A stretch of 32,000 bases of DNA from Alkalilimnicola ehrlichii MLHE-1. Lineage in GTDB: Bacteria > Pseudomonadota > Gammaproteobacteria > Nitrococcales > Halorhodospiraceae. Under the pieces are notes generated by a model. It was not told the DNA's origin. It saw nothing but the letters and a program-made list of their open reading frames with translations, and ran no database searches. Both the position numbers and the translations under genes were made by a program. The stretch's first letter is position 1. Each line of letters begins with the position of its first letter. The stretch covers positions 1,740,001 to 1,772,000 of the forward strand of contig NC_008340.1 in NCBI RefSeq assembly GCF_000014785.1, read 5' to 3'. Of the stretch, positions 1,185 through 31,952 are shown in pieces.

Positions 1185-1198
1185 GCATGCGGGCCCAT

Positions 1199-4064: not shown

Positions 4065-4127
4065 ACTGGCCATCAGAACTGACCCACCCTTGGGGTGGCC
4101 ACTGGCCACGAGTAGACCGTACCGTCC

Positions 4128-6426: not shown

Positions 6427-6459
6427 GCACCGACACCTGGGTCAATTCTGTTGGCCACA

Positions 6460-8975: not shown

Positions 8976-9049
8976 TTGCCATCAACAGGTGATTACGAAT
9001 CAGTAGCCTTAGGGATCCAAGTGATTGATCGCAACAGCACTAAATCCAC

Positions 9050-9550: not shown

Positions 9551-9636
9551 GTAGGCGATCCACAAACCCCATCTGTTGCGCCCGGAGCTGATTCGGGAAA
9601 CTGCTCCCATCGAATCCAGATGAGGAGGTCAGTTCC

Positions 9637-9843
9637 ATGTGGTTGTCACCAGCGCGCGCCCGTTGGTTGGGGTATCTGCATCATGCGCACGCTTGCGGCC
9701 TGTCGCTGAGCGATTATGCCCAGGCGCAGGATTTGAGCCTCGCCGAGCTTTTGGGCTGGGAGCGTCACCTGGCAGCGCTCGGCATTGCGGTGCCGCAGCG
9801 CCACCGGCCGGCCCGGTTTGTGGCCGTGGCGGTGCAGCCATGA
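9637..9843 (+). CDS. tnpA: IS66-family accessory protein TnpA (small)
   Basis: 68-aa ORF with RBS gaggagg at 9622-9628. Its stop overlaps the tnpB start (ATGA at 9840-9843), which is the expected position for the family. Confidence 0.6.
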   Translation: MWLSPARARWLGYLHHAHACGLSLSDYAQAQDLSLAELLGWERHLAALGIAVPQRHRPARFVAVAVQP

Positions 9844-10196
9844 TCCGGCCCGATACCCAGGTCAATGTCTATCTCTGTCGCGAGCCGGTGGACATGCGCA
9901 AATCCATCGATGGCCTTTCCCTGCTCGTCCAGGAGGCGATGGCGCTCAATCCGTTCGAGCAGGCGGTGTTCGTCTTCTGCAACCGGCAGCGCGACAAGGT
10001 CAAGATCCTCGCCTGGGAGCGCAATGGCTTCGTGCTCTGGTACAAGCGCCTGGAGCAGGAGCGGTTCAAGTGGCCGGATCGGCTGCAGGGCGACACCCTG
10101 ACCCTTTCCGGGCAGGAACTGAACTGGCTGCTGGATGGGTACGATATCGCGTTGATGCGCCCCCATAAAGCGTTGCATTATCAGGCCGTTGGTTGA
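9840..10196 (+). CDS. tnpB: IS66-family TnpB (IS66 Orf2-like)
   Basis: 118 aa: MIRPDTQVNVYLCREPVDMRKSIDGLSLLV ... FVFCNRQRDKVKILAWERNGFVLWYKRLEQERFKWP, the hallmark IS66 Orf2 sequence. The annotated ORF 9639.. is an upstream in-frame extension. Confidence 0.9.
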   Translation: MIRPDTQVNVYLCREPVDMRKSIDGLSLLVQEAMALNPFEQAVFVFCNRQRDKVKILAWERNGFVLWYKRLEQERFKWPDRLQGDTLTLSGQELNWLLDGYDIALMRPHKALHYQAVG

Positions 10197-10240
10197 TCTT
10201 TTTGCTTTTGGAGGGGGCCTGATTCTGCTATAATTGGGCC

Positions 10241-11833: not shown

Positions 11834-11950
11834 GACCGAGCTCGGTAGGTGGGCGGGGTGGACCGCTTACTTCGGGACCTGTCGGAAGAAGCTTCGGGTT
11901 GAGTAGTGTCGGGCCATGTCTCCCTCCCCAGCCGTCCTGCCAGAATCTCC

Positions 11951-11989
11951 TTGGATTATACGGGACGATGCAGTACATTACAGTACATT
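11951..11989 (+). promoter_or_regulatory. putative sigma70 promoter overlapping a tandem operator-like repeat
   Basis: TTGGAT (11951-11956), then N17, then TACATT (11974-11979). Tandem cagtacatt repeats lie at 11971-11979 and 11981-11989 with a 10-bp period. The site is 26 nt upstream of the RHH gene start. Confidence 0.3.
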
Positions 11990-12014
11990 TGCAGCCACCC
12001 TGCGAAGGACCCTG

Positions 12015-12209
12015 ATGGCCACCACTAAGACCGCGACCGTGACCTTCCGCATTGATCCAGCCGTGAAGGAGGGGCTCCGTACCGCTGCCGCCCGGGAGCA
12101 CCGCTCCATTGCCAACATGGTGGAGGTGTTGATCCGGGATTATTGCGGGCGCAACGGCATTGCAATCCCCGAGAACAACGAACGGCCGCATGGAAAAGAC
12201 AACACATGA
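12015..12209 (+). CDS. ribbon-helix-helix (CopG/Arc/MetJ-type) DNA-binding protein
   Basis: 64 aa starting at MATTKTATVTFRIDPAVKEGLRTAAAREHRSIANMVEVLIRDYC. This has the beta-strand, helix, helix pattern typical of RHH proteins. The stop overlaps the SNF2 start (ATGA at 12206-12209). The track ORF 11916.. is an N-terminal extension. Confidence 0.7.
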   Translation: MATTKTATVTFRIDPAVKEGLRTAAAREHRSIANMVEVLIRDYCGRNGIAIPENNERPHGKDNT

Positions 12210-15097: not shown

Positions 15098-15158
15098 CGG
15101 ACAACAACGGCAACCAGAATCAAGCAATCAACGAAAACACGACAAGGACTATCGCAGC

Positions 15159-18388
<3,230 letters not shown>

Positions 18389-18392
<4 letters not shown>

Positions 18393-21220
18393 GCCAGAAC
18401 CTTACACCCGTGAACAACGAATGGCGTTTTCCCGGTGCCCGCTGGTGGAGCTTCGACTTTCACACGCATACGCCCGCGTCCAGTGACTATGGGAAAGGAC
18501 CAGATCAGGCGGAATTGAGAGAGATAACGCCGGAAGAATGGTTGCTCAAGTTTATGCGGGCAGAGATTGACTGCGTCGCGGTCACTGACCACAACTCAGG
18601 CGATTGGATTGATCGGCTAAAGGCTGCGCTAGACCATCTCCGCGAGCAGCAGCACGCGGATTATCGGCCCCTCTGGCTCTTTCCAGGTGTCGAAATTACA
18701 GCCAATGGAAATATCCATATTCTGGCCATCTTTGATCCAGCCAAGGATGGTGCGGATGTCAGTGCGCTGCTGGGGGCGGTCGGCAATCACGGCAACCGGG
18801 GGGAGAGCAACCGTGCCGTGAACGCTTCCCCAATCGAAGTGATTCAGAGAGTCGTAGAAGCCAGTGCGTTGCCCGTGCTGGCCCACGTAGACGGCCCTTC
18901 CGGCGCCTGGGAGCTAGGCGGCAATACATTAACGCCCTTGCTTGAGTGTGAAGGCCTATTTGCAATGGAGGTGGTTAACCAATGCTCGGAAAAGCCTGCA
19001 CTATACGGTCAGAAGCACCTGCGCTGGGCAGAAGTGCTGGGGTCTGACGCGCATCACCCTTCCGGCCCCGACGGTGCGCGCTATCCGGGTTCGCATTGGA
19101 CCTGGGTAAAAATGGCGCAACCATCGCTGGAAGGCTTGCGCCTTGCCTTGCTTGATGGTGAAGGGTTCTCCATTCGCCGCAGTGATGATCCGGAACCGTT
19201 CGACCCAAACGCGCTGCCTGAGAATTTTATCGAGTCAGTAGAAATTGACGATGCCCGCTATATGGGGCGTGGTCAGCCGGAAACCCTTTCCTTCAGCCCG
19301 TGGTTCAACGCGCTGGTAGGCGGGCGGGGGACAGGAAAATCGACCATCGTGCACGCACTGCGGCTGGTGTTGAGGCGCGAGAATGAGTTGCAAGCCCTGG
19401 AGCAAGGCAGCGAGCCGCGCCGTACTTTCGAAAAATTCAGTCGCGTAGCACGTGGGCGAGACGACGATGGTGCGCTTACGCTGGATACCCATGTGGCACT
19501 GACCTTTATTAGGGACGGCACACGTTATCGCGTGTACTGGCGTCAAGATGGCTCGGGTTCGATCGTCGAAGAACGAAAAGATGGTGAGTGGCGTGAATCG
19601 GATAATCAGGCGGTGATTCCCGAGCGTTTCCCCATCCGGCTGTTCAGCCAGGGCCAGATCGCGGCACTAGCCGGCGGAAGCCATCAGGCGCTGCTCGATT
19701 TGATCGATGAAGCGGCGGGAGTGGATGCCGAACAAACCGCGCTGCGTGAGGCACGGCAGACCTATTTGTCTCTACGCGCCAAAGCGCGTGAACTGGAAGG
19801 CCGGCTTCAAGGGCGTGATGCACTGAAGGTCCGCTTGGAAGACGTGCAGCGGAAATTGAAGAAGTTCGAGGAAGCCCATCACGCCCATGTGCTAAAGGCG
19901 TATCAGCGTCGATCCCGACAGGAACGGGAAGTTAACCGCCAGTTTGAATCGGTTGCTGAAATTGTGGGCCGTGTTCGTGAACTCGCAGAAGAATTGGCGG
20001 CGGAGGATGTCCCGGAGCAACTGTTCGATGAGCAGAACGAACAGGACAAGGAGGCGCTGGCCCTCGTGTCGGGTCTCCATCAGGCGATTGAATCCGCCAC
20101 GAAGGCGTTGAAGGGCACGGCCAATGACTTGGCGGCCACGGTCCGGAAAGAGCGGGAAAAACTCCCGGATACTGACTGGCAGCAGGCAGTGAGCAAGGCG
20201 CGGACCGATTACGAGAAACTTGTCAGGGATCTAAAGGAACAGGGTGTCGCGGATCCTAGCGAGTATGGCCAGTTGGTACAGGAGCGGCAGCGGCTGGAAA
20301 ACCAGTGGAAGGAATTGGAGTCGTTAGCCGCGCAGCGCAGCCGAGTCCTGGATCAGGCCGAAACCCAGCTCGAGTCGGTTGTAGCGGCTCGGCGGGCGCT
20401 CAGCGAGCGGCGGGAAGCCTTTCTTGAGGAGAGTCTGGCCGATAACGAATATGTGCAGATCAACCTGAAGCCTTACGGCCAAGATGTCCGTGCCATGGAA
20501 CGAAGCTTGCGAGAATTGTTGGGCGCGGAAGGCTCAAAATTCGAAGCGGATATACTGATTGAAGAAGATAGCCAGCCTGCCAAGGGGATTGTCGCTGAAC
20601 TGATTAAACAGTTACCTGATGATCTTACTCAGGCAAAAGGGGAACTTGAACGAAGGGTCGGCCAAATCAAACGGCGCCTGAATGAATCCTGCCGGGGCAA
20701 CGGCATTTTCGGTGGTCACTTCAACAACTTCCTTTCCAAGCAGGCGAGTAATCGCCCTGAGTATGTCGATCACATAATGATGTGGTATCCGGACGATGGC
20801 TTGGATGTGAGGTACAGTCAAAAAGGCGATGGGCGGGATTTCAAATCCATTGAACAGGCATCGGCAGGTCAACGCGCGGCTGCGATGCTGGCATTTCTGC
20901 TGGCCTACGGCTCTGAACCGATTGTGCTGGATCAGCCAGAAGATGATCTCGATAATCACCTGATTTACAACCTGGTGGTTCGCCAATTGCGTGAAAACAA
21001 GCGGCGGCGGCAGATTATTTCCGTAACGCATAATCCCAACATTGTGGTCAATGGGGATGCCGAAATGCTCCACGCACTGGATTTTCGCGGCGGCCAGTGT
21101 CGGGTGATCGAAAAAGGCTCGCTACAGGAAGAAGCCATGCGCGATGAGGTTTGCCATGTCATGGAGGGCGGCCGCGATGCATTCGAGCGGCGTTATCGTC
21201 GTTTGGGCAAGGAGGTATAG
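18389..21220 (+). CDS. PHP-domain phosphoesterase fused to an SMC/RecN/OLD-like ABC ATPase with a long coiled-coil insert, 943 aa
   Basis: PHP metal ligands: [27 protein letters not shown]. ATPase motifs: Walker [10 protein letters not shown] (about 19319-19345), signature-like SAGQR, Walker [12 protein letters not shown] (about 20923-20952), H-loop SVTHNPN. About 300 aa of heptad-rich sequence lies between Walker A and the signature. Confidence 0.85.
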
Positions 21221-21223
21221 GGC

Positions 21224-22495
21224 ATGTTTGATACCGCGGCTGCGCTCTTGGAGAAGATACAGCTTGGGGAAGATTCCTTCCTTGAGCTGAAGGAGGTTCG
21301 GATCGCCGGGAAGCGAGTGACCGCACCACATCGCAACTCACTGGTGGACGAATTGGCAGCGTTTGCGAATGCCAAGGGCGGTGTCTGTGTGCTCGGTGTG
21401 GATGATGCAACGCGAGAAATTCTCGGGATTCCGCGAGACAAGCTGGACCTTGTGACTGACTATGTCCGGCAGACCTGCCTGGACTCAGTGACACCACCGT
21501 TGACCCCAGTTATTGAGCGGCTACTTCTGCCTACGACCACCGGTGACGAGGTGGCCGTATTGAAGGTGGAAATCGGTCGCAGCTTGTGGGTGCATCGCAG
21601 CCCCGGCGGCTATATGCATCGGGTGGGTGATGAAAAGCGTGAAATGGCGCCGGACTTCCTCGCCCGACTGTTTCAGCAGCGCAGTCAGGCCCGAATCATT
21701 CGCTTTGACGAGCAGCCAGTGCCGAATGCCACCCTGGATGACTTGAATGAGGCGCTTTGGCAACGATTCGCAACCGCACGTACCCGGGATAACCGCGATG
21801 ACCTGCTGCGAAAGCTCGGCATGGCCCGCATGGATGACGATGTCTTGCGCCCGTCGGTGGCGGGTATCCTTCTGGCTTCCGATGATCCTCGCCATTGGCT
21901 GCCCAATGCGTTTATTCAGGCGGTCGCCTACCGGGGTACTGAAATTCGACCGGTAGGCGACCAAGCGTACCAGCTTGATGCAGCAGATCTCACCGGGCCT
22001 TTGGATCAACAGGTGCTTTCTGCCTGCCATTTTGTCAGCAAAAATATGCGAGTCGCCGCGTCCAAAAGCGTGGGCCGAGAGGATGTTCCTCAGTTTGATA
22101 TGACAGCCGTATTCGAGGCCATCGTCAACGCGGTCGCGCATCGTGACTACGCTATGCAGGACGCCAAGATCCGGTTGCGCGTATTCGCAGACCGCATGGA
22201 ACTGTACTCCCCCGGAGCCATCCCTAACACCATGACGGTGGATAGCCTACCGTACCGCCAGGCTGCACGGAATGAAACGATTACCAGTTTGCTGGCGAAA
22301 TGTCGGGTGCCGGATGAAGGCGGGCTGGGAACAGGCCGATCCACCATGATGGATAAGCGGGGCGAAGGCGTGTCCATCATCCTTCAAAATAGTGAAATGC
22401 TGTCCGGTCGTGTCCCGGAATACAGCCTGGTTGATGATAGTGAGCTCCGCCTGGTGATTTACGCACCAGCGGAAACGGATGGAGGGGAAGACTGA
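21224..22495 (+). CDS. AlbA_2 (Schlafen-like DNA-binding) plus HATPase_c_4-like ATP-binding protein, 423 aa
   Basis: N-terminus [10 protein letters not shown] ... [22 protein letters not shown] is the typical AlbA_2 divergent AAA-like box. C-terminus [34 protein letters not shown] is the GHKL-like box seen in RecG-related putative regulators. RBS aaggagg at 21209-21215, with a 3-nt gap after the upstream stop. Confidence 0.8.
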
Positions 22496-22497
22496 GC

Positions 22498-25400
22498 ATG
22501 CCGCCTCGTAGACGCAACAACCGGCCGCAGGTGCCGTTCGCCTACAAGCTGGTGCTGAACCAGTGGCTGTTCAGCCTGTTTGGGCTGGCGTCCACTGACG
22601 GCTTCTTTACCTGGAACGGAAAGCGCCTGCCGTTACTGGAAGCCTTCAAGCAGAAGTTTCAGTTGAGCGAAGACAGCGCCGGCGGGTTGGACGAGAACAA
22701 CATCCACCGCTTCCACACGGCCCTGACCAACCAGACCGACCCGCTGCCCGAACTGCCGGCCGATCTATTGCTCGAGTATGACCAGAATATCGTCCGTCAT
22801 ACCCAGCGTTTGAACGAGCGCCGGCTGGCGCGCGGCGAAGAGGCTATCGCCTGGAAGTACTTCCAGTACCTGTCGCTGCTGTTCACCGAAATCTATCTGG
22901 ACCGTTATTTCTCCGATGCGGATGCCTTGCTGGCCTCGATCAACGAACAGATTGAGCGCTACAACGCGGACAAGCCGGAACCGGACCAGGTCCCAAATCT
23001 GGATCCGGAAGGCGATGTCACCGGGCAGTTGAACAAGCTGGCCTTCTGGAGCGCCACCGGCTCCGGTAAGACGCTGATCATGCACGCCAATATCCTGCAA
23101 TATCAGCACTACCTGACCAAGCACCGCCGCCGCCGCGAGCTCAACCGGATCATCCTGTTGACGCCCAACGAAGGGTTGAGCCAGCAACACCTGCGAGATT
23201 TCCAGGCTGCCGGGATCGAGGCGGAGTTGTTCGACAAGAACGGTCGCGGGCTGTTCGCCGGGCAGGCTGTCGAGATCATCGACATCAATAAACTGCGCGA
23301 CGAGATGGGCGATAAGACGGTTGCCGTCGATGCCTTCGAGAACAACAACCTCGTGCTGATCGATGAAGGGCATCGGGGTGCCAGTTCCGGTGAGACCGGC
23401 ACCTGGATGCGCTTTCGCAATGCATTGTGCGAGCAGGGTTTTTCCTTCGAATACTCCGCCACTTTCGGCCAGGCGGTAAAGCGCAGCTCCCAACTGGCGG
23501 CCCAGTACGAGCGTTGCGTGCTTTTCGACTATTCCTACAAGTATTTCTATGGCGACGGCTATGGCAAGGACTACCAGATCCTGAACCTGGACCCGCAGAC
23601 CCAGGAAAACACTATGGAGGTTTACCTGGTGGCCTGCTTGCTGTCTTTCTTCCAGCAGCTGCGCTTGTATCGCGAACAGGCTGTGGCTTGCCGGCCGTTC
23701 AATATTGAGAAGCCGTTGTGGATCTTCGTCGGCGGCCGGGTCACCGCGTCTCTTTCGACCAAGGATGCCTCCGACATTGTTGAGATTCTGCGCTTTTTGG
23801 CGCGCTTTCTCGGTGATCGTGCCGGGAGTACGGCGCGCATCCGGCGGGTGCTGGAGGAAGGCTTGATTGCTGCCGATGGGCGCAATCTATTTGCCCGGCG
23901 TTTTGCCTACCTGAACGGATTGGGGCTTTCGGCCGAGCAACTGTTCGAGGAAGTACAGGCCAGCCTCTTCAATGCCGCAGGGGGCGGCGCGCTGCACGTG
24001 GAGAACCTGAAGGGTGTCCCGGGGGAAATCGCTTTGCGCGTTGGCGACAATGAGCCGTTCGGCGTGATCAATGTCGGCAATGACAGCAGACTGTGCTCGC
24101 TCTGTGAGAACGAAGACGGGCTGCTGGTCGGTGATCGGGATTTCAAGGGCTCCCTGTTCCAGTCCATCAATGCTCCCGATTCGTCTGTCAATGTACTGAT
24201 CGGCTCCAAGAAGTTCACCGAAGGCTGGAACAGTTGGCGCGTCAGTACCATGGGGCTGATGAATGTGGGCAGCACGGAGGGTTCGCAGATCATCCAGCTT
24301 TTTGGCCGCGGGGTGCGCCTGAAGGGTTATGACGGCAGCCTGAAGCGCAGTGCCAGGGTGAACCTCCCGGAGGATGTCGCGCGGCCAGGACACCTGCCGA
24401 CACTCGAAACCCTGAATATCTTCGGCATCAAGGCCGACTACATGGCCCAGTTCCGCGAGTTTCTCGAAGAAGAGGGGCTGCCGTCTAACGAGGAGCGTAT
24501 CGAGTTCCTGCTGCCCGTGATTCGCAACCTGGGTCAGAAGCAGCTCAAGACCATTCGCTTGAAGAAGACCATCAACGGGGTAAGTACCCAGTTCGGTGAC
24601 GCCTTCAAAAAGCTCGGGCCAGTGCCGACACTGGCCCGGCCCGATCCCGCGCAGGAGGCGGCCACCCGGTATCTGCAAACCAATCCGGTTGTGCTGAATT
24701 GGTATCCCAAGATCCAGGCGATGCGCTCCAGTGGCGTCGGTGCCGTGGAGGAGGATCGTCAGCCGGATCAGGGTGCCCTGAGCAAGAGACACATCGCCTT
24801 TCTCGACCTGGACGCGCTGTATTTCGAGCTACAACGCTTCAAGGCTGAGCGGGCCTGGCACAACCTGAACCTGCCACGGGATGTGTTGCCCGAACTGCTG
24901 GCCGACCAGAGCTGGTATCGGTTGCTAATCCCGGAGTCCGAGCTGGCCTTCGATTCCTTCGAGAAGATTCACCTGTGGCAGGAACTCGCCGAGGCGCTGC
25001 TCAAGAAGTACTGTGAGCGCTACTACTCGTTCCGCAAAAAGGAATGGGAGCTGCCACACCTGGAGTATCGCTATCTGGATGCCAACGATCCGAACTTTCC
25101 TCAGGTCAATGAGGATTTCCCGGAGGGATACCACCGCATCCTGGTGGAAGAGTCTCAGACCGAGATTGTCGCCAAGCTCAAGGAGCTCAAAGCACAGATT
25201 GATGCGGGCACGCTGAAACCCTGGCAGTTTGGCGGCCTGCAAGCTATTCCATTTGGTCGCCACCTGTACGAGCCACTGTTGCATCTGGCGGGCTCAACCG
25301 TCGAGATCAGTCCCGCACCCCTGAACCAGGGCGAGAGGCGCTTCGTGGAAGACCTGAGGGACTACTGTGACTCGAAACCGGCATTACTGCAGGACAAGGA

Positions 25401-25812
25401 ACTCTATCTGCTACGTAACCTGAGCAAGGGCCGCGGCGTAGGCTTCTTTGAGGCAGGTAACTTCCATCCCGATTTCATCGTTTGGTTGATCGCTGATGGT
25501 CAGGAGTACATCTCGTTCGTCGATCCCAAAGGGATTCGAAACCTCGGTGCCCAGGACCCGAAAATCCAGTTCCACCAGACCATCAAGGAAATCGAAGATC
25601 GGCTTGGCGATTCAACTGTGACGCTGAACAGTTTCGTGATTTCCAATACGCCAGCGCATGAGATGCGATTGCTTTGGGGGGTGGACAAGGCGCAGATGGA
25701 AGCCTGGCATGTTCTTTTCCAGCAGGAGGACAAGGCCAGTTATATCGATTCGCTACTCGCCAAATCACTTGAGCCTGTCAAGTCTCCCGCGAAGGGATCC
25801 GTTTCCAAGTAA
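22498..25812 (+). CDS. SF2 (DEAD/DEAH, type III Res-like) helicase with C-terminal PD-(D/E)xK nuclease motif, 1104 aa
   Basis: Helicase motifs: WSATGSGKT (I, about 23050-23073), LIDEGHRG (II, 23362-23373), YSATF (III), QLFGRGVRL (VI). C-terminal nuclease motif HPDFIVW ... x16 ... FVDPKG (25468-25530). RBS ggagggg at 22481-22487, with a 2-nt gap after the upstream stop. Confidence 0.88.
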
Positions 25813-26093
25813 CGTAAGAACGGCGTACTTATGGGGATCGAGTAGGAGGGGGTGTTACCACCCCCGTCCTCTCACACCACCGGGCATACGGTTCCGTACC
25901 ACGGCGGTTCACGTAAGACGCTTGAGCCCATGGTAGTGGTCCATCAGCGATACCAGTTGAAGCTGATCAAAGTGCTTCTTGGGCAGCGCCTGGTTCAGGT
26001 GCGACGCCCCGGCATTCCACCACGGGCCACGCCCGTTGGTGGCACTGCGCCAGGCCCGCTCCTCGCCCAGTCCCCCGAAGTTCGACACCTCAA
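25813..26093 (-). mobile_element. 3' remnant of a group II intron (maturase C-terminus plus domain V/VI region); ends approximate
   Basis: A minus-strand frame gives ...NGRGPWWNAGASHLNQALPKKHFDQLQLVSLMDHYHGLKRLT*, with the stop at 25909-25911. This resembles the conserved C-terminal tail of bacterial group II intron reverse transcriptase/maturases as I recall them. A 34-nt domain V-like hairpin follows about 35 nt downstream. The 5' part of the intron is absent. Confidence 0.55.
25840..25873 (-). ncRNA. group II intron domain V-like hairpin
   Basis: The minus strand reads GAGAGGACGGGGGUG-GUAA-CACCCCCUCCUACUC. It is exactly 34 nt, has a GNRA tetraloop, a 7-bp upper stem and a GAG/CUC base. 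The lower stem is imperfect. Confidence 0.45.
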
Positions 26094-26284
26094 GCGGGCC
26101 TGTTTACGCCAATTGTACAAGGTCGCCGCGGAAATCCCCTCGGCCTCGGCCACATCAGGGACAGTGCGGTTCATCGGTGGTGCCAGCTTGCGCAGGACAG
26201 CTTCCTTACGCTCCGCGGAGTAGTGCTTCATGGTTGTCACCTGCTGGTTGCATAGAGGCGACAACTACGTTGACCGATAGGGCA
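26094..26284 (-). mobile_element. inverted partial second copy of the IS3-like left end plus orfA 5' part (same family as 9050-9550)
   Basis: High (roughly 95%) nucleotide identity to 9050-9240 by my eye alignment. Encoded MKHYSAERKEAVLRKLAPPMNRTVPDVAEAEGISAATLYNWRKQA differs at 2 residues. Homology stops abruptly at 26094, where intron-derived sequence begins. Confidence 0.7.
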
Positions 26285-26445: not shown

Positions 26446-26796
26446 CTATCTGAGCATATCCCTCAACCTGCTTCTCCTGCTATCTGATTCATCCAAAACA
26501 TCATCTAAATTATCCTTCAGCACCTCATTTTCTGACTCGAGCTCTTTATTTTTTCGGATTAGATTGTCCTGTATTGAAATGAGACTTTTAATGACCTGCT
26601 CCGGATCATCAAAGTCGATTTCTTCTGGTCGGACATCCCCACCGGAGAGCCCCGCTCTCTCTGCTTGGGAGAGCGCACGCTCCACTTCTGACTTAACTGC
26701 CCGGTCAAGCACGTACCGAGCGGCATCCTCACTGCTACAGGCTACAACGGCGACTGCAACAACAACACCCAGGATCACAGAATTAATCTTAGCCAT
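26446..26796 (-). CDS. small lipoprotein with acidic coiled-coil C-terminal part, 116 aa
   Basis: Signal peptide plus lipobox (ILGVVVAVAVVAC|SS), followed by heptad-like NLIRKNKELESENEVLKDNLDDVL. RBS aaggaa. The start overlaps the upstream gene's stop by 8 nt. Low-GC coding sequence. Confidence 0.65.
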   Translation of the reverse strand: MAKINSVILGVVVAVAVVACSSEDAARYVLDRAVKSEVERALSQAERAGLSGGDVRPEEIDFDDPEQVIKSLISIQDNLIRKNKELESENEVLKDNLDDVLDESDSRRSRLRDMLR

Positions 26797-27874
26797 TACT
26801 TTCCTTCCGGGATTCCGGACCCCCCTTTAGCCAGGCAATTGATCGCTTCGCGAAATTCTCTGCGATATGACGCCTCGGCACGAGACAAAACAACCTATGG
26901 AAAACAGGAAAAACTCGATCCACCATCCCACGCTGTAGCAACACCATGGCAATGGAAAGTGGCATCATCTTCAGAAGGTTAAACAAAAAAACAAGCGCGT
27001 AAAACGCATAAAACCCGTCTAGCCGATCCTCGTCAGAAAAACCCCATATGTCAAGAAACTCATTCGCCGATGCGAGCTTGAACGCATCAAGAATAAGGTA
27101 CATATTTATTAGCGGCCGGGATATTTCATTACCCCCCAAACTCGGCACCTGATTATTTTCTGCATACTCAATGAAGTCAATCTGCCCGAGATCTGAATTG
27201 TAATCGTAGCCTACATTAGAAACAAAAAAAGAATGAAGGTCTTTCGCACTCAGCACACCCGCAAGAACGACATTAATAACAACGATGGCCAGGATTAACC
27301 CCAAAACATTTCGACCAGCATCACCTCCTGCGCCCGCGCTTTCAGAACCGTCTCTTCCAGCCTTAATATCTCCATCTTTATTTTCTATAGGACTGCAACT
27401 TTTTGGAGAACCCTCATTCTCACCAGAAGCACTTGCTGCATCCTTCGAAATATTTCTATCTTGAATACCTTTGACTGCAGCGCTCCCCAAGAAATAAGAG
27501 ACAAAGAAAGCACATATCAAAAGCAGAAAGAAGACAGGAACCACACCATGACTTATAACCGCTCCTTTCGCAACCAGAGAAAAGATAATGGACAATATAA
27601 AGGCAAAAGCCGCAGACCCTAATAGCTGCCAGGCGGACCCACTTTTCTCAAAGAACGCACGAAGCACGGAACCTTTCTCAAAGAATACTTTTACGGAGTT
27701 TCGCAGCACCATCTGAACATCATAGGCAGCACCCCATAAAACCAAAAAAACCACACCAAAAAGCAAAGAAAAACCAAGATCAGTTCTTCCAAATAGAAAA
27801 ACCAAACCGAAAAAAGGGATCATTGACACCAAGACTAAACACCACCTTTTGGAACGACCCATTACTCCCCCCAC
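26789..27874 (-). CDS. polytopic inner-membrane protein of unknown function, 361 aa
   Basis: At least 5-6 hydrophobic segments, including WCLVLVSMIPFFGLVFLF, LLFGVVFLVLWGAAY, LLGSAAFAFILSIIFSLV, VVPVFFLLLICAFFVSYFLG, VLGLILAIVVINVVLAGVL, FYAFYALVFLFNLL. It also has a central G/S/D/E-rich loop. The GTG at 27874 or the ATG at 27862 are possible starts. About 40-48% GC. Confidence 0.65.
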   Translation of the reverse strand: MGGVMGRSKRWCLVLVSMIPFFGLVFLFGRTDLGFSLLFGVVFLVLWGAAYDVQMVLRNSVKVFFEKGSVLRAFFEKSGSAWQLLGSAAFAFILSIIFSLVAKGAVISHGVVPVFFLLLICAFFVSYFLGSAAVKGIQDRNISKDAASASGENEGSPKSCSPIENKDGDIKAGRDGSESAGAGGDAGRNVLGLILAIVVINVVLAGVLSAKDLHSFFVSNVGYDYNSDLGQIDFIEYAENNQVPSLGGNEISRPLINMYLILDAFKLASANEFLDIWGFSDEDRLDGFYAFYALVFLFNLLKMMPLSIAMVLLQRGMVDRVFPVFHRLFCLVPRRHIAENFAKRSIAWLKGGPESRKESNG

Positions 27875-27892
27875 GCAGGATGTTCCCGAATT

Positions 27893-29086
27893 TTATTGCC
27901 ATAGCGACAAGGGTTGTCCAGTTGTAACAACCGCTCCATAGCGGCATTTTATGGTGATCGTATCACGCCATATGACCCATACAACATCGAGAGCCTCCAC
28001 CTCGTGGCGGCCAGGTAGCTGACCGAACCCATCCGTGAAATACACCAGCACCCTCGGCGGATCCGACTTCAAGGCCTCGAACACCGGCCTGAAGTCCGTC
28101 CCCCCACCCCCCTTCAGAATCATCTCAGGCCTCAGATCCGCAGCAGTCACGTACTCATCGCTCTGGATATCGGCATCCGCTTGGATCAACCGAATCCGCG
28201 TATCCGGCCACTGACCCGCAATGCCCCGCAACTCTGCCAGGAACGCGGGCAGGTAGTCCTGCGTGCTGCCGCTGGTGTCGATGGCCACCGCCAGGTCCAC
28301 CCGCTCCCGCGCCGGCCCGGGCAGGTAAAGCTCACGACTGAGGTACCTGCGGTTCGGTGTGGTCCATTGACGCCTGCCCGGGTCCAGGCGGGGAACAAGG
28401 TAGCGTCTCAGGACAGTCTGCCAGGGCACTTGCGGACGGGTCAGGCTGCGCACCAGGCTGCCCATGACGCCGGGCAGACGCCCGATGCCCCGACCACCGT
28501 GGCCCCGGGCCTGCACTTGCTGCCAGGCCCCCACCACCCGTTGCTGCCAACCTTTCCAGATACGCTCGTCGGGTCGCGGGCAGAGGTCGGGATCGCTACG
28601 GCCAAGGGACGGGGCGCGCCAGGTGTGCCTGTCCCGGAATCGGCCCCGGCCCTCATCCGTCAGGTCCTCCGGCAGAACCTCGTAGATGGACTCTGCGCTC
28701 CATCCGCGCCAGTGCCGTCTGTACAGCGCGCCTTTGGGCACGGTCATGCCGGTCTCCGCGAGCAGGCCATTCACCTCGTAGTCCACCGCGTGATTCCACC
28801 GGACCGTGTCCCGACCCTGGCGGCGCAGGTGATGCAGGGCCGCGCAGTGCCATACCTCGTGCGCCAGCACGAAGAGCCGGTCCTCGTCGCTGAGCCGGCA
28901 GAGAAAGTTCGCATTGCCGAAAACCGTGCGGCCATCGGTGGCAGCGGTGGGCAGGGCCCCGTCCACCACCGGTTGCAGTTCCAGTTGCATGGCCAGCATG
29001 CCGATGAACGGCTGCTCGAAGACCAGCCGCGCCCGGTCGTTCTCCCACAGCGCGAGCGCCTTTTCCTTGACCTCGGCCCGCTTCAT
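27893..29086 (-). CDS. VWA-domain protein with N-terminal HExxH metallopeptidase-like domain (DUF2201-type), 397 aa
   Basis: The Met at 29086 (MKRAEVKEK) overlaps the MoxR stop (ATGA). HExxH motif AHEVWHCAALHH (HEVWH at 28847-28861). MIDAS residues AIDTSGST, GGGTDF, YFTDG. The 746-aa track ORF is an artefactual upstream extension. Confidence 0.85.
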   Translation of the reverse strand: MKRAEVKEKALALWENDRARLVFEQPFIGMLAMQLELQPVVDGALPTAATDGRTVFGNANFLCRLSDEDRLFVLAHEVWHCAALHHLRRQGRDTVRWNHAVDYEVNGLLAETGMTVPKGALYRRHWRGWSAESIYEVLPEDLTDEGRGRFRDRHTWRAPSLGRSDPDLCPRPDERIWKGWQQRVVGAWQQVQARGHGGRGIGRLPGVMGSLVRSLTRPQVPWQTVLRRYLVPRLDPGRRQWTTPNRRYLSRELYLPGPARERVDLAVAIDTSGSTQDYLPAFLAELRGIAGQWPDTRIRLIQADADIQSDEYVTAADLRPEMILKGGGGTDFRPVFEALKSDPPRVLVYFTDGFGQLPGRHEVEALDVVWVIWRDTITIKCRYGAVVTTGQPLSLWQ

Positions 29087-30258
29087 GCCGACACGCCGTC
29101 CCAGCGCTGCGCGAAGGCCTGGCCGTGCCGCTCGCTCCATGCGTTGAAGGCCGGGTGCATCAGCAGTCGCTCGGAGCGGCGCTCGGTTTCTGCCTCGTCC
29201 GGCGCGTTCAGTGCATCCACCAGGGCCAGGGTGGCAAAGTCCGACGGCAGTGCCAGGGTGAGCCGGAAGAAGCCTTCCACGAGTGCATCCGAGCCCCCTT
29301 GCGGCCCCTGCCAGAGGTAGTAAACCGCTGCGGCACACAGGGCATAGCGGTGGTCGGCCCGCTCGGGGATAGTGATTTCCGCCTCTCCGCGCAGCATCGC
29401 CGGGACGTCGGGCAGAGTACGGTGCCAGGCACGAAAGGCCATCAGCTCCACTCCGGCACCGGGGCCGACCAGGCCCTGGACCAGCAGGCTCACGTCCTCC
29501 TGCGGCAGCCCGGTCCGCTCCGCCCGGTGCAACGTGTCGCTGACCCGCTCCCAGGTCCGTGGCGAGGGCCAGCCCCGCTCCAGGTTGCCGTCCATGGAGA
29601 AAAAGGCGTGGGGCTGGAAGCGCAGGAAGCCGATCACGTCCGGGTGGATGCCTCGGCTCCGGGCCCAGGGCAGCCAGGATTCCAGGTCCGGGGTGATCTC
29701 CAGGTGACAGAGCCGGTTGGCCAGCGCGCTGGAGAACGTGGTGGCCACGGCCCGGTCCTCGCTGCGATTGCCGGCCGCGCAGACCATCCATCCGGGGGGC
29801 AGTTCGTAGAGACTGCCGAGACGACGGTCGAGGATGATCTCGTAGACAGCGACCTGCAGGCTGCGATCCGCGGCGGTGAGTTCGTCGAACAGGATGATGC
29901 CGCGGCTGTCCCGGTCCCGTGGCCAGTCGGAGGAGAGCAGCCAGTCCACGGCTTCGTCCTTCGGCACGGGCAGACCACGGATATCCACCGGATCGCGCTG
30001 GGCGAGACGGATGTCGATGAAGTCGATCCCCTCCTCTTCGCACAGCTCGCGGATCACGGTGCTCTTGCCCACGCCGGGCGGCCCCCAGAGCATCATCGGC
30101 GGCACGGCGTGCGGGGCCTCGGGATGGTCCCACAGGGCGTGCAACTGATGACGCAGCAGACGACGGACGCGCGCCACGTCCGTGCCGGGTGTGGATGGGA
30201 CATCCGGGGCGAGATCGGGCATGTCGGTTCTGGACCGGGATCGGACGGGACGGTTCAT
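29083..30258 (-). CDS. MoxR-like AAA+ ATPase (AAA_5-type), 391 aa
   Basis: Walker A LWGPPGVGKST, Walker B GIILFDELTAADRS, sensor-1-like VCAAGNRSEDRA. It is paired with a downstream VWA gene, as in MoxR-VWA modules. The start overlaps the upstream gene's stop (ATGA at 30255-30258). Confidence 0.88.
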   Translation of the reverse strand: MNRPVRSRSRTDMPDLAPDVPSTPGTDVARVRRLLRHQLHALWDHPEAPHAVPPMMLWGPPGVGKSTVIRELCEEEGIDFIDIRLAQRDPVDIRGLPVPKDEAVDWLLSSDWPRDRDSRGIILFDELTAADRSLQVAVYEIILDRRLGSLYELPPGWMVCAAGNRSEDRAVATTFSSALANRLCHLEITPDLESWLPWARSRGIHPDVIGFLRFQPHAFFSMDGNLERGWPSPRTWERVSDTLHRAERTGLPQEDVSLLVQGLVGPGAGVELMAFRAWHRTLPDVPAMLRGEAEITIPERADHRYALCAAAVYYLWQGPQGGSDALVEGFFRLTLALPSDFATLALVDALNAPDEAETERRSERLLMHPAFNAWSERHGQAFAQRWDGVSA

Positions 30259-31952
30259 ATGGACGCCTCCTGGGGGGTCTCGGTATCGATGCTGAAGGCG
30301 TGGGTGCGGACGCGAGCGATGGCCGCCGCGGCGGCCTGCTGGCGCAGGTCCTCCTGCAGCCAGTTCAACTTCCGGCTCACGACCATCAACCGGGGTCGGG
30401 CCGGGGCATAGCCATGCTGCGCGAGGGTGATGAACAGCGGGGCGCCGTGCTCCGGCGTGAGCCGGTCCCGCGCGAACGCGAAGATCAGATCGGCCAGCGC
30501 CCGGTCACGTAGCCGGACGGCGAGTTGCAACACCGCCTGCACCGCGTCGTGGATCGCCCGGTTCATGTACCCCCGGCGGGTGATGCGGCGCAGTCCCTTG
30601 TCGATGGCCTGCGTCCAGTCGTCCGGCCAGTCGTCGCCACGGCCATGCCAGCGGCGCAGCGTCCAGGCCAGCCCGTGCAGGGTGTGCGGATCCCCCGGGC
30701 AGTGCAGCAACCGCCCGAAGCCCTCGCCCACCGGCTGATCCGCAACCGCCCGGTAGAGGGCCAGGTCAGAGGCCCGCCCCTCCAGCCAGAGATCGCTGTT
30801 GAAATCCCAGTGCCAGCGGTTGCCCGCCACCCGAAGGGCCTCGTCCATGTCGGGGGGCCGTTTCGGCTGGCTTCTGACCCGCAGGTGGAGCAGGCACCGC
30901 AGGCGCCAGAGCAGTTCCGGGTCATGCTCATCCAGTGCCTCCTCCAGCGCGCGCAGCGCGGAGAGGCGCTGGGCGCGGGTGCGCTCCAGCCACGTCCAGC
31001 CGTACAGGGTGGATAGCGCGTCGTCTCGATCTCGGTGGGTGCCGAGCAACTGCCGGACGCCGTTGGCCTCACTGCCATACCAGCCCAGGGCGCCGTTCAG
31101 GACCGGGAAATGGCCGTGGGTGGTGATGGCGTGCACGCCGCCCGGGACGTGCAGGTGGTTCACGCGGGGGCTGCGCTGGATGACCACCTCGACGGTCTCG
31201 GCGTGGACATCGAAGAAGCTACAGCGCTGGAACGTGAGGCGACGCCAGCCCCCCTTGGCATGCAGGATCGCACCGCGGTGGCCGCAGTCGGTCATGTGCA
31301 GCACGCCGTCCTCGTTGTATGCCTCGCTCAGGCCCGGGCAGGTGCGGAGCTGCACCCGCACGCCGGTCCTGGCGAGTCGGAGTCGGGCCAGCGCCTCGGC
31401 GTCGGTGGCGACCAGGTGGTCGAGCCGCCCCGACGCCTCCACGTGCACGTCGACCAGGCCCTGCGGCCGGTGCAGCCAGACCTGGCGCAGGGCCGGCGGC
31501 ACGGTCCAGGAGCGGGGCAGCGATGGTGAGAGGGCCACCCAGCCCTCCACCGGGCAATCCGGTGGCGAGGGTTGAATGGCGACACCGTTGAGAGGCCGGG
31601 CATGCCGTGGCGCCTGCACCTCAAAGGTACCCCCGGACCAGCAGCAATCCAGCCGCTCGACGGCCCCAAGGACGAGTAATTCGGGTCGGCCATCCCCGGC
31701 GTCCAGGTGCACGGTCGCCCCGGTGTCGCCCGCCGGCAAGCGGATCCATTCAAGACGGGCGCAATCCTGCAGGGTCAGGTGCAACCCGGGCGGACAATGC
31801 GCCAGATCCAGGCCGACAAGGTCGGGACTGCGGGCCACGTCCAGTGCCCGCAGATGGCCATGCGCTACCCGCACGCGGCCCGCCAAGTCGGTAAGGGTTG
31901 CACCGCCGCAGTGGTCCGGAATGACGTCGGGGTCTGATAGTGAATCAGTCAT
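30255..31952 (-). CDS. hypothetical protein, N-terminal LRR-like repeats plus C-terminal helical region, 565 aa
   Basis: First gene of the minus-strand operon, with RBS ggaggg upstream. The N-terminal half has Leu/Cys-spaced repeats (LRALDVARSPDLVGLDLAHCPPGLHLTLQDCARLEWIRLP). The C-terminal half is Trp/Arg/Leu-rich and helical. No catalytic motif recognised. Confidence 0.6.
   Translation of the reverse strand: MTDSLSDPDVIPDHCGGATLTDLAGRVRVAHGHLRALDVARSPDLVGLDLAHCPPGLHLTLQDCARLEWIRLPAGDTGATVHLDAGDGRPELLVLGAVERLDCCWSGGTFEVQAPRHARPLNGVAIQPSPPDCPVEGWVALSPSLPRSWTVPPALRQVWLHRPQGLVDVHVEASGRLDHLVATDAEALARLRLARTGVRVQLRTCPGLSEAYNEDGVLHMTDCGHRGAILHAKGGWRRLTFQRCSFFDVHAETVEVVIQRSPRVNHLHVPGGVHAITTHGHFPVLNGALGWYGSEANGVRQLLGTHRDRDDALSTLYGWTWLERTRAQRLSALRALEEALDEHDPELLWRLRCLLHLRVRSQPKRPPDMDEALRVAGNRWHWDFNSDLWLEGRASDLALYRAVADQPVGEGFGRLLHCPGDPHTLHGLAWTLRRWHGRGDDWPDDWTQAIDKGLRRITRRGYMNRAIHDAVQAVLQLAVRLRDRALADLIFAFARDRLTPEHGAPLFITLAQHGYAPARPRLMVVSRKLNWLQEDLRQQAAAAAIARVRTHAFSIDTETPQEASI

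What the first reader, a model, noticed from the sequence alone, without database searches (positions are those of the whole stretch)
26446..31952. Five-gene LRR-like / MoxR AAA+ / VWA-metallopeptidase / membrane protein / lipoprotein operon: candidate NTPase-driven conflict or stress module next to the defence locus
Seen in sequence:
- ATGA overlaps occur at 30255-30258 and 29083-29086. An 18-nt gap and then an 8-nt overlap follow, so all five genes are likely co-translated from one transcript.
- The VWA protein has an intact MIDAS (DTSGS ... T ... D) and an HExxH motif.
- The MoxR protein has intact Walker A and B motifs.

Established knowledge: MoxR ATPases work with VWA partners as chaperone-like remodelling pairs. 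MoxR-VWA cores with variable third components and effectors have been proposed, in comparative-genomic work from the Aravind group, as biological-conflict systems. Few of these have been tested.

Inference: the LRR-like protein could be a sensor, MoxR-VWA/peptidase the switch, and the membrane pair the effector. That would give an abortive-infection-style design. Its location inside the same island, directly after a defence operon, supports a defence role, but this is guilt by association.
Basis: partly seen in the sequence, partly recalled or inferred. Interest (0 to 1): 0.6.

Follow-up and report, generated by a model that had tools for sequence, protein, structure and literature searches.

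The report
LRR-like, AAA+, protease-vWA triad plus add-on
The first three genes form a conserved, uncharacterised ATPase/protease module found in many bacteria and marine archaea, with two of its genes matching core genes of N4-like phages. The two membrane genes are a foreign add-on joined to its end, and a defence role is plausible but untested.

Summary
All sequence observations hold: five co-directional minus-strand genes, two ATGA overlaps, and intact Walker A/B, MIDAS and HExxH motifs.

**The conserved unit is three genes, not five.**
- X (565 aa) has an LRR-like beta-solenoid and a helical-repeat domain.
- The second gene is a midasin/MoxR-clade AAA+ ATPase.
- The third is a DUF2201 protein, a zincin domain fused to vWA.
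- AAA+ precedes vWA in 80 of 82 related loci. An X homolog precedes the AAA+ in about 50 of 66 loci with room, including Poseidoniales archaea.
- The AAA+/DUF2201 pair is homologous to phage N4 core genes gp24/gp25, whose function is unknown.

**The membrane and lipoprotein genes are a foreign cassette.**
- Their GC3 is 0.42-0.48, against 0.82-0.86 for the triad.
- They join inside the last 43 codons of the vWA gene.
- The only other lineage with this cassette (Vreelandella) has it at the same position.

**Context.** Bacterial triads lie in variable regions with WYL-WCX regulators, NERD/UvrD helicases, toxin-antitoxin genes, restriction-modification genes, CRISPR and DISARM-like genes. This fits an inducible conflict or stress module. 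It matches no PADLOC model and none of the four described MoxR-vWA ternary classes.

**Verdict:** a new variant of a known kind. The defence role is still guilt by association.

The parts
30255..31952 (-). X, the third component (Mlg_1547). Residues 1-295 form an LRR-like all-beta solenoid. Residues 297-545 form a TPR/Sel1/ARM-like helical repeat with invariant W349, R352, W380 and W382.
   Evidence: There is no Pfam, NCBIfam or PADLOC hit. The AlphaFold model has pLDDT 92.4 and pTM 0.84; the N-terminal domain alone has pLDDT 94.9. Foldseek lists are dominated by LRR and helical-repeat proteins, but none is significant. The family has 186 representatives at 50% identity. A family member lies directly upstream of the AAA+ in about 50 of 66 loci.
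29083..30258 (-). AAA+ ATPase of the midasin/MoxR (helix-2 insert) clade, homologous to phage N4 gp24.
   Evidence: Walker A, Walker B, sensor-1 and the SSALANR motif are invariant. It matches phrog_1297 at E=3e-80 over its full length. The pairwise comparison with N4 gp24 gives E=3e-28. The family profile hits midasin AAA domains at 3e-12. Pfam AAA_5 (20.8 bits against a cutoff of 22) and AAA_3 (16.5 against 27) fall below threshold.
27893..29086 (-). DUF2201 protein: an N-terminal gluzincin-like metallopeptidase domain (HExxH) fused to a C-terminal vWA domain with a complete MIDAS. It is homologous to phage N4 gp25.
   Evidence: PF13203 scores E=2e-38 and PF09967 scores E=3e-17. It matches phrog_1314 at E=6e-76. 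The catalytic and MIDAS residues are invariant. The family profile gives weak hits to an M48 peptidase and the MJ1213 minigluzincin.
27893..28023 (-). Replaced 3' end of the vWA gene (last 43 codons). This is the junction between the conserved triad block and the variable low-GC DNA.
   Evidence: DNA homology to the 80%-identical relative L004 stops at 28023. GC3 falls to 0.628 here. The C-terminal sequence departs from the family consensus but keeps W370 and G384.
26789..27862 (-). Accessory six-TM membrane protein (ACN2MM_08435) with foreign composition.
   Evidence: There are no family hits. Six hydrophobic segments sit in the same pattern as in the only homolog, P0278 of Vreelandella. GC3 is 0.416. 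The homologs in L040 and L088 lie directly after the triad's vWA gene.
26446..26796 (-). Accessory coiled-coil lipoprotein, overlapping the membrane gene by 8 nt.
   Evidence: It has a signal peptide, a VVAC lipobox and a coiled coil. An analogous 97-aa lipoprotein (LVGC lipobox plus coiled coil) overlaps the membrane gene in L040, although BLAST finds no similarity.
26094..26283 (.). A 190-bp fragment of an IS66-family left end. It separates the cassette from the restriction/SNF2 defence locus.
   Evidence: It is a 97%-identical inverted copy of 9051-9240. IS66 genes lie at 9070-11833.

Best explanation
**The functional unit is a three-gene accessory module.**

Shown:
- X (LRR-like solenoid plus helical repeat), a midasin/MoxR-clade AAA+ ATPase and a zincin-vWA (DUF2201) protein are encoded in this order, usually with overlapping or near-touching reading frames.
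- The order holds in dozens of bacterial and Poseidoniales genomes.
- All ATPase, MIDAS and HExxH residues are conserved.
- X diverges fastest of the three.
- The ATPase/zincin-vWA pair is homologous to phage N4 gp24/gp25.

Inferred mechanism:
- The AAA+ forms a ring.
- The vWA MIDAS grips an acidic peptide of a partner. That partner is either X itself or a client that X's repeat surfaces recruit.
- ATP-driven remodelling then exposes or positions the substrate for cleavage by the zincin domain. The module would be an ATP-gated, specificity-subunit-directed protease switch.

Inferred role:
- Bacterial copies sit in variable regions. Ssdna-sensing WYL-WCX regulators, helicases/nucleases, toxin-antitoxin genes, restriction-modification genes, CRISPR and DISARM-like genes are common neighbours.
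- The most likely role is an inducible conflict (anti-phage/anti-MGE) or genotoxic-stress response.

**The membrane protein and lipoprotein are a separately acquired low-GC cassette.**
- The cassette recombined into the last 43 codons of the vWA gene.
- It is probably co-transcribed and may act as an optional membrane output or anchor.
- It is not part of the conserved machinery.
For: **Gene order.** AAA+ lies directly upstream of vWA in 80 of 82 loci. An X-family ORF is adjacent in 46 of 66 loci by a strict criterion. Four more are adjacent by the coordinates. This includes 14 of 15 archaeal loci.

**Motifs.** The catalytic and binding motifs are invariant.

**Divergence.** Window against L004: X 78%, vWA 82%, AAA+ 92.5% identity. 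Window against Natronospira: 27%, about 47% and about 62%.

**Phage homology.** Shown. gp24 and gp25 are 2 of the 14 N4-like core genes (PMC4193335).

**Block mobility.** The roughly 4.4-kb block is the only DNA shared with an 80%-identical relative. Both flanks differ.

**Neighbours.**
- WYL-WCX regulator in 26 of 63 bacterial loci.
- NERD-UvrD, GajB-like and IetA-like proteins and DrmD-like SNF2 helicases.
- Cmr CRISPR, HigB, HipA and a MunI restriction-modification pair.
- WYL-WCX regulators control defence systems and DNA-damage responses (PMC9122601, PMC11662680, PMC10853764).

**Cassette.**
- The GC3 break is, and the homology break at 28023 is.
- Only two membrane-protein family members turned up in 5.8 billion proteins. 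Both lie directly after a triad vWA gene.
- The start codon overlaps the vWA stop (GTGA) in L040.
Against: - No experiment exists for any member.
- Nothing matches PADLOC v2 or NCBIfam.
- The pair is a core gene set of lytic phages. The Aravind group proposed a virion-assembly role for it in jumbo phages (PMC7824862). A non-immune chaperone/protease role is therefore equally compatible with the biochemistry.
- The A. ehrlichii copy has no WYL regulator nearby.
- In Poseidoniales the neighbourhood is syntenic and includes housekeeping genes such as phosphoglycerate kinase.
- I did not measure neighbourhood enrichment against a background.
- Peptidase activity, complex formation and co-transcription are all unverified.
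Confidence: 0.5

Rival explanations
1. All five genes form one obligate abortive-infection system: the LRR sensor feeds a MoxR/vWA-peptidase switch, which triggers the membrane/lipoprotein pair as the killing effector.
For: - Gene spacing is tight in the window.
- The same five-gene order occurs in Vreelandella utahensis, with a GTGA overlap between the vWA and membrane genes.
- Every known homolog of the membrane protein sits right after a triad vWA gene.
Against: - The pair is absent from about 80 other triad loci.
- It has foreign GC3.
- It is truncated and replaced by a MunI restriction-modification pair in L088, where the triad stays intact.
- In L004 a Cmr locus occupies the same position.
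Confidence: 0.15
2. The membrane and lipoprotein genes belong to the neighbouring SNF2/methylase (DISARM-like) island. That island lands at a hotspot at the 3' end of the vWA gene, and the two genes have no functional tie to the triad.
For: - In L040 the pair is followed by a DrmD-like SNF2 helicase and a giant Eco57I-like methylase.
- In the window the pair is followed by an IS66 fragment and then a locus containing a DrmD-like helicase. Undoing an IS66-mediated inversion would make that locus co-directional with the pair.
- The membrane protein and DrmD both show about 25% identity between the two genomes, against 40-55% for the triad proteins.
- Halospina has the triad directly followed by SNF2 and methylase genes without the pair.
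Against: - The GC3 of the pair (0.42-0.54) also differs from that of the SNF2 and methylase genes (0.70-0.72 in L040).
- A 560-nt gap separates the pair from SNF2 in L040, whereas the pair overlaps the vWA stop.
- No membrane/lipoprotein pair is part of described DISARM systems. This last point rests on my own knowledge.
Confidence: 0.3
3. The triad is a non-immune, dedicated remodelling/protease system. It would be either a client-specific chaperone like NorQ/NorD, CbbQ/CbbO or RavA/ViaA, or a DNA-damage/replication-associated factor that strips or cleaves proteins. X would be the adaptor or the client.
For: - Characterised MoxR-vWA pairs are maturation chaperones (PMC9976466, PMC13036017).
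- The pair is expressed as middle genes in N4, and a phage assembly role has been proposed.
- Neighbours include recBCD, AddAB-like genes and UvrD helicases that replace X in Lentisphaerae.
- Ssdna-sensing WYL regulators are also neighbours.
- The Poseidoniales loci are syntenic.
Against: - No conserved candidate client enzyme lies next to the triad across lineages.
- Distribution is patchy. Only 139 confirmed matches came from a pattern scan of 185,579 species genomes.
- The flanks differ even between relatives that are 80% identical.
- Helicase and nuclease neighbours are equally typical of defence islands.
Confidence: 0.3
4. The block is a leftover or cargo of a mobile element and serves that element, for example in anti-defence or in assembly or replication of a phage or plasmid. 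It would not serve the host.
For: - There are 599 phage records and 66 plasmid records with DUF2201 homologs.
- The matches to PHROG families cover the full protein length.
- The pair is present on Synechocystis pSYSA.
Against: - No phage structural or replication genes lie near the triad in the window or in the loci I examined.
- X has no viral homolog.
- The triad's GC3 matches the high-GC genes flanking it in the source genome.
- The triad is conserved within genera such as Marinobacter, together with its neighbours.
Confidence: 0.08

Closest known systems
Phage N4 gp24/gp25 pair (phrog_1297 + phrog_1314; core genes of N4-like Schitoviridae). The same kind of MoxR plus metallopeptidase-vWA pair was noted in group 2.2 jumbo phages (PMC7824862).
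   Same: The AAA+ is homologous over its full length (E=3e-28 pairwise; 3e-80 to the PHROG). The zincin-vWA protein is homologous too (30% identity; 6e-76 to the PHROG). Gene order is the same, and the HExxH and MIDAS residues are the same.
   Different: The phage versions have no X gene. They sit among middle or replication genes of lytic phages, and their function is unknown or proposed to be virion assembly. The cellular version adds a conserved third protein and lies in variable chromosomal regions.
MoxR-vWA ternary conflict systems of Kaur, Burroughs, Iyer and Aravind 2020 (VMAP, iSTAND, FtsH and beta-propeller classes; PMC7159879).
   Same: Both have a MoxR-clade ATPase, a vWA protein and a distinct third protein. 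In both, peptidase domains can be fused to the vWA component. Both are proposed to act as thresholding switches in conflict systems.
   Different: The third component here is an LRR-like plus helical-repeat protein. It is not VMAP, iSTAND, FtsH or a beta-propeller. The ATPase lacks the N-terminal WxhapG/PsWRxa motifs described for VMAP-type MoxR (against the sequence). The Pfam bpMoxR model is not matched. The taxa are halophilic and marine unicellular bacteria and archaea, not multicellular lineages.
Classical MoxR/vWA chaperone pairs (NorQ/NorD, CbbQ/CbbO, RavA/ViaA, CoxD/CoxE) and eukaryotic midasin.
   Same: An AAA+ of the helix-2-insert clade is coupled to a MIDAS-containing vWA domain. 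The best solved-structure match of the ATPase profile is the midasin AAA domains.
   Different: No adjacent client enzyme is present. The vWA protein carries a zincin domain. The sequence is too divergent to reach the Pfam AAA_3 or AAA_5 thresholds or to hit RavA, CbbQ or NorQ structures.
IetA/IetS and similar ATPase-plus-protease defence pairs (PADLOC models).
   Same: The logic is the same: an AAA ATPase paired with a protease in defence islands.
   Different: There is only a P-loop-level match to IetA (E=0.044). The protease here is a zincin-vWA, not a serine protease.

Membership tests
DUF2201 family (Pfam PF13203 DUF2201_N + PF09967 DUF2201) | Both domains score above the Pfam gathering thresholds, in the order metallopeptidase then vWA. 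| tested here: met
   132.9 bits against a cutoff of 23.2, and 63.2 bits against 26.4.
vWA domain with a functional MIDAS | DxSxS motif plus the downstream Thr and Asp metal ligands. | tested here: met
   D270, S272, S274, T330 and D352 are invariant in 16 cellular homologs and in the N4 and phiFa phage homologs. Metal binding itself was not tested.
Gluzincin/zincin metallopeptidase | HExxH motif plus a third ligand, and proteolytic activity. | tested here: inconclusive
   H76, E77, H80 and H85 are invariant. The family profile gives only weak hits to an M48 peptidase (E=0.002) and the MJ1213 minigluzincin. The third ligand and the activity cannot be tested here.
MoxR family AAA+ (Pfam AAA_3 / AAA_5) | Reaches the family gathering score. 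| tested here: not met
   AAA_3 scores 16.5 bits against 27, and AAA_5 scores 20.8 against 22. There is no NCBIfam MoxR hit. No RavA, CbbQ or NorQ structure is hit with the family profile.
MoxR/midasin (helix-2 insert) clade of AAA+, in the broad sense | Walker A/B, sensor-1 and Arg-finger motifs, closest structural relatives within the clade, and an obligate vWA partner. | tested here: met
   The motifs are invariant. The profile's best PDB hits are midasin AAA domains at 3e-12 to 1e-10. A vWA gene is adjacent in 80 of 82 loci.
Leucine-rich repeat proteins | Match to an LRR sequence family, or a significant structural match to LRR solenoids. | tested here: inconclusive
   X itself has no Pfam hit. 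Four of 60 homologs hit PF24758, with a best E of 2.5e-5. The Foldseek list for the N-terminal domain is almost entirely LRR proteins, but the best E is 0.02 and TM is at most 0.40.
Aravind MoxR-vWA ternary systems (VMAP, iSTAND, FtsH, beta-propeller) | The third component belongs to one of the four defining classes. | tested here: not met
   X is an LRR-like solenoid plus helical repeat. It has no STAND, FtsH or propeller domain. The class descriptions are in PMC7159879.
Catalogued anti-phage defence systems (PADLOC-DB v2.0.0) | Significant match of the component proteins to a system model. | tested here: not met
   There are only P-loop-level hits, with E of 0.003 or weaker, for the ATPase. 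X, the vWA protein and the membrane protein have none.
Phage gp24/gp25-type pair (phrog_1297 + phrog_1314) | Full-length match of both proteins, and adjacency of the two genes. | tested here: met
   E=3e-80 covering 326 of 356 profile positions, and E=6e-76 covering 384 of 394. The genes are adjacent and in the same order in N4.
Bacterial lipoprotein | N-terminal signal peptide ending in a lipobox [LVI][ASTVI][GAS]C. | tested here: met
   The sequence MAKINSVILGVVVAVAVVAC has its Cys at residue 20. Lipidation cannot be tested here.

The most novel reading that the evidence does not exclude
The X/AAA+/zincin-vWA triad is a fifth, undescribed class of MoxR-vWA ternary immune system. A fast-evolving LRR-plus-helical-repeat sensor would license an ATP-gated protease. 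Its enzymatic core would be shared with, and perhaps exchanged with or countered by, the universally conserved gp24/gp25 genes of N4-like phages. Output cassettes such as the membrane/lipoprotein pair would be swapped by recombination inside the 3' end of the vWA gene.
Probability: 0.3. Interest if true: 0.8.

Novelty: new variant of a known kind. Interest (0 to 1): 0.58.

Why it matters
- **A new domain family.** The triad would add a widely distributed third-component family to the MoxR-vWA systems. That family has 186 clusters at 50% identity and spans bacteria and marine Group II archaea. It also gives the family a confident structural model.
- **A route to N4 gp24/gp25.** The triad links an uncharacterised cellular module to two of the 14 core genes of N4-like phages, whose role has never been established. 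A phenotype in either setting would inform the other.
- **A mode of island growth.** The splice of foreign cassettes into the last codons of the vWA gene shows how defence islands can grow at a specific gene end.
- **If it is not defence.** It would still be a new ATP-gated protease, probably tied to DNA-damage signalling through WYL regulators.

Tried and rejected
- **X as an orphan.** The word-indexed search found only 3 homologs of X, which suggested an orphan. I rejected this after the exhaustive profile search (186 representatives) and the iterated HMM on fetched loci.
- **Structure searches.** Foldseek gave no significant match for the full-length X model against PDB or BFVD, or for the N-terminal domain alone. 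Only a fold class could be assigned.
- **Family libraries.** NCBIfam and PADLOC gave nothing useful for any of the five proteins.
- **Lipoprotein homology.** BLAST between the two lipoproteins found no similarity. I inferred analogy only from position, lipobox and coiled coil.
- **Wider searches for the membrane protein.**
  - The viral contig scan found none.
  - The metagenome scan found only a truncated copy, from the Vreelandella lineage.
  - The X alignment was too divergent for a pattern scan of viral contigs.
- **Regulatory and RNA scans.** The promoter/terminator scan was uninformative, with counts at or below the shuffled expectation. There are no tRNA genes or Rfam families at the junctions.
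- **Zincin classification.** I considered a SprT/Wss1-type identity for the zincin domain, because a SprT-like gene lies upstream in the genome. The profile instead points weakly to M48/minigluzincin.
- **Literature.** Searches for DUF2201, COG3864 and the Pfam accessions returned no functional study.
- **Gene calling.** My crude longest-ORF gene caller produced antisense artefacts in high-GC loci. I used only clusters confirmed by Pfam or PADLOC.

Full report
**Observation**

The window carries five minus-strand ORFs:
- X, 30255-31952, 565 aa.
- An AAA+ ATPase, 29083-30258, 391 aa.
- A DUF2201 protein, 27893-29086, 397 aa.
- A membrane protein, 26789-27862, 357 aa from the ATG.
- A small protein, 26446-26796, 116 aa.

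The two ATGA overlaps and the 8-nt overlap are exactly where stated. Pfam confirms DUF2201_N (E=2e-38) and DUF2201 (E=3e-17) in the third protein. The ATPase gets only sub-threshold AAA, AAA_5 and AAA_3 hits, and X and the two small proteins get nothing. NCBIfam and PADLOC add nothing.

- HExxH and the MIDAS residues are invariant in 16 cellular homologs and in phage homologs.
- Walker A, Walker B, sensor-1 and an SSALANR motif are invariant in 20 ATPase homologs.
- The membrane protein has six hydrophobic segments.
- The small protein has a signal peptide, a VVAC lipobox and a coiled coil.

**Source and boundaries**

The sequence is Alkalilimnicola ehrlichii MLHE-1, and X is Mlg_1547.

Composition breaks sharply inside the cluster. 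GC3 is 0.855, 0.844 and 0.822 for X, the ATPase and vWA codons 1-354. It is 0.628 for the last 43 vWA codons, 0.416 for the membrane gene and 0.479 for the lipoprotein gene.

DNA homology to a metagenomic relative about 80% identical (L004) covers only a 4.4-kb block. The block runs from a small divergent membrane-protein gene, through X and the ATPase, to position 28023, which is 130 nt before the vWA stop. Both flanks are unrelated. In that relative a type III-B Cmr CRISPR locus follows the triad. In Natronospira the triad lies between recBCD and a HigB toxin.

The membrane and lipoprotein genes are therefore not part of the block shared with close relatives.

**The conserved unit**

A scan of one genome per species with a DUF2201 alignment returned 80 loci.
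- The ATPase is directly upstream of the vWA gene in 80 of 82 loci, counting L004 and L005.
- The word-indexed search had made X look like an orphan with 3 hits. An exhaustive profile search found 186 representatives, nearly all 530-650 aa.
- An iterated HMM found an X-family ORF in 63 loci.
- X is adjacent to the ATPase in 46 of 66 loci with room by a strict criterion. Four more (L014, L034, L044, L068) are adjacent by the coordinates. This includes 14 of 15 Poseidoniales archaeal loci.
- Where X is missing, a UvrD-type helicase sits in its place (Lentisphaerae), or nothing does.
- X diverges fastest: 27% identity to Natronospira, against about 47% for the vWA protein and about 62% for the ATPase.

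**What the parts are**

With a 60-sequence alignment X folds confidently, at pLDDT 92.4 and pTM 0.84. Residues 1-295 form an all-beta solenoid and residues 297-545 form a helical repeat. The N-terminal domain alone gives pLDDT 94.9.

Foldseek finds no significant match. The N-terminal list is almost entirely LRR proteins (RPP1 LRR, PcpA, Bacteroides LRR proteins, TLRs), with a best E of 0.02 and TM of at most 0.40. The C-terminal hits are TPR, ARM, Sel1 and SNAP-like repeats. Four of 60 homologs touch an LRR Pfam model. 'LRR-like' is therefore a fair description of the fold class, not a family assignment.

The ATPase profile's best solved relatives are midasin AAA domains (3e-12). It hits no RavA, CbbQ or NorQ structure. 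It belongs to the MoxR/midasin clade but not to MoxR proper.

The zincin domain gives weak profile hits to an M48 peptidase and a minigluzincin.

**Phage connection**

The ATPase matches phrog_1297 (3e-80) and the vWA protein matches phrog_1314 (6e-76), both over their full length. tblastn finds DUF2201 homologs in 599 phage records.

In phage N4 the homologs are gp25 (30% identity) and the adjacent gp24 (E=3e-28). gp24 and gp25 are 2 of the 14 core genes of N4-like phages. They are middle genes and their function is unknown (PMC4193335).

The Aravind group noted a MoxR plus metallopeptidase-vWA pair in jumbo phages and proposed a virion-assembly role (PMC7824862). The pair also occurs on 66 plasmids, including Synechocystis pSYSA, where it sits among toxin-antitoxin genes and a DUF262 gene. 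No functional study of DUF2201 turned up.

**Neighbourhood**

Recurrent bacterial neighbours:
- WYL-WCX regulator, in 26 of 63 bacterial loci.
- ADP-ribosylglycohydrolase, in 15 loci.
- Calcineurin-like phosphoesterase, in 23 loci.
- NERD-UvrD and GajB-like helicases.
- An IetA-like double AAA protein, in 11 loci.
- DrmD-like SNF2 helicases, in L035, L040 and L051.

Other neighbours are HipA and HigB toxins, a MunI restriction-modification pair and Cmr CRISPR.

WYL-WCX regulators sense ssDNA and control both defence systems and DNA-damage responses (PMC9122601, PMC11662680, PMC10853764). This context fits an inducible conflict or stress module. I measured no background frequency, so it remains association. 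In archaea the context is syntenic and mixed: phosphoglycerate kinase, a DNA methylase and an AAA_15/21 ATPase.

**The cassette**

The membrane protein has a single homolog among 5.8 billion proteins, in Vreelandella/Halomonadaceae.
- It lies directly after the vWA gene of that organism's triad, and its GTG start overlaps the vWA stop.
- It is followed by an overlapping 97-aa coiled-coil lipoprotein.
- Its GC is similarly low.
- A metagenomic relative of that locus (L088) has the membrane gene truncated and replaced by a MunI restriction-modification pair, while the triad remains intact.

The five-gene layout recurs, so it is not strain-unique, but the cassette is rare and dispensable. In both genomes a DrmD-like SNF2 locus follows it.

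In the window an IS66 end fragment at 26094-26283 is an inverted copy of 9051-9240. This suggests that the restriction/SNF2 locus was inverted. The cassette could therefore belong to the neighbouring island instead of the triad. Halospina has the triad followed tightly by SNF2 and a giant methylase with no cassette.

**Comparison with known systems**

The four MoxR-vWA ternary classes of Kaur et al. 2020 are defined by VMAP, iSTAND, FtsH or beta-propeller third components (PMC7159879). X is none of these. The closest known entity is the phage gp24/gp25 pair. The closest concept is the ternary MoxR-vWA switch.

**Verdict**

- The finding is best described as a conserved, undescribed three-gene ATP-gated protease module. 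It is a new variant of the MoxR-vWA ternary theme, carrying a horizontally acquired membrane cassette in this strain.
- A defence role is plausible, at roughly even odds, and untested.

Noticed in passing
window 1-1199 and 2146-2282; L001 7568-8769 and 7389-7526 (about 33184-34385 on the window's scale, just outside it): A 1.2-kb direct repeat at 94% identity, plus a 137-bp piece at 88%, carries a MoCF_biosynth gene. It brackets the whole roughly 32-kb stretch that holds the IS elements, the defence locus, the cassette, the triad and a glycosyltransferase gene. This looks like a Campbell-type integration of DNA from a related strain, or an old segmental duplication.
   Followed up: partly
window 26094-26283 and 9051-9240: A 190-bp fragment of the IS66-family left end is present as a 97%-identical inverted copy on the far side of the defence locus. 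An IS66-mediated inversion of 9051-26283 would explain why the restriction/SNF2 genes converge on the cassette. In Vreelandella the equivalent genes are co-directional with it.
   Followed up: partly
window 12143-25812 (+): The neighbouring defence locus reads as follows: a DrmD-like SNF2 helicase (E=8e-208), a type III methyltransferase, Ppl, a SLFN_AlbA_2/HATPase_c_4 protein and a type III restriction enzyme. This is an unusual hybrid of DISARM-like and type III restriction-modification parts. A 59%-identical DrmD homolog lies about 6 kb from the triad in Marinospirillum minutulum (L051).
   Followed up: partly
window 2504-11833: A pile-up of mobile elements: two inverted IS3 copies (2504-4066 on the minus strand, 6503-8020 on the plus strand) flanking an IS21 istA/istB pair, then a 304-aa tyrosine recombinase (8061-8975), then IS66 tnpA/B/C. 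A 39%-identical recombinase lies 3.6 kb downstream of the triad in L022.
   Followed up: no
L004 943-2638: In the closest relative the X gene is split into 494-aa and 89-aa ORFs by an apparent frameshift, while the ATPase and vWA genes are intact. A complete type III-B Cmr locus starts 277 nt after the vWA stop.
   Followed up: no
L016, L024, L029, L030, L034, L043, L048 (Marinobacter); L050, L027, L005: An extended cluster recurs across genera in different arrangements. It contains ADP-ribosylglycohydrolase, calcineurin-like phosphoesterase, a NERD-UvrD helicase, the triad, a second ADP-ribosylglycohydrolase and a WYL-WCX regulator. This suggests a larger functional unit than the triad.
   Followed up: partly
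L075, L080, L084 (Lentisphaerae/Victivallaceae): A GajB-like UvrD helicase sits directly upstream of the ATPase, where X normally is. The ATPase/zincin-vWA pair therefore accepts alternative third components.
   Followed up: no
RefSeq phage records such as NC_008720.1 (N4), NC_020848.1 and NC_023719.1; phrog_1314: The gp25-type zincin-vWA protein is labelled 'HNH endonuclease' in RefSeq phage records and in the PHROG description. Nothing in the sequence supports that name. It looks like a propagated mis-annotation.
   Followed up: no
L035 7878-17087 (Halospina denitrificans): The triad is followed at -4 nt by a 77-aa ORF, then by a DrmD-like SNF2 helicase and a protein of more than 1598 aa resembling the Eco57I methylase. 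Gaps are minimal throughout, as if all were one operon.
   Followed up: no
L089 5985-8263 (Synechocystis PCC 6803 plasmid pSYSA): A two-gene version (MoxR family ATPase plus VWA-like protein, with overlapping ORFs and no X) lies among toxin-antitoxin pairs and a DUF262 gene. This plasmid belongs to a genetically tractable model organism, so it is a convenient place to test the pair.
   Followed up: no
L088 7989-8354 and 9210-10521: In a marine metagenome relative of the Vreelandella locus, the membrane gene is cut off after about 120 codons. A MunI-type restriction enzyme and an MT-A70 methylase follow it. This shows active turnover immediately downstream of the vWA gene.
   Followed up: yes
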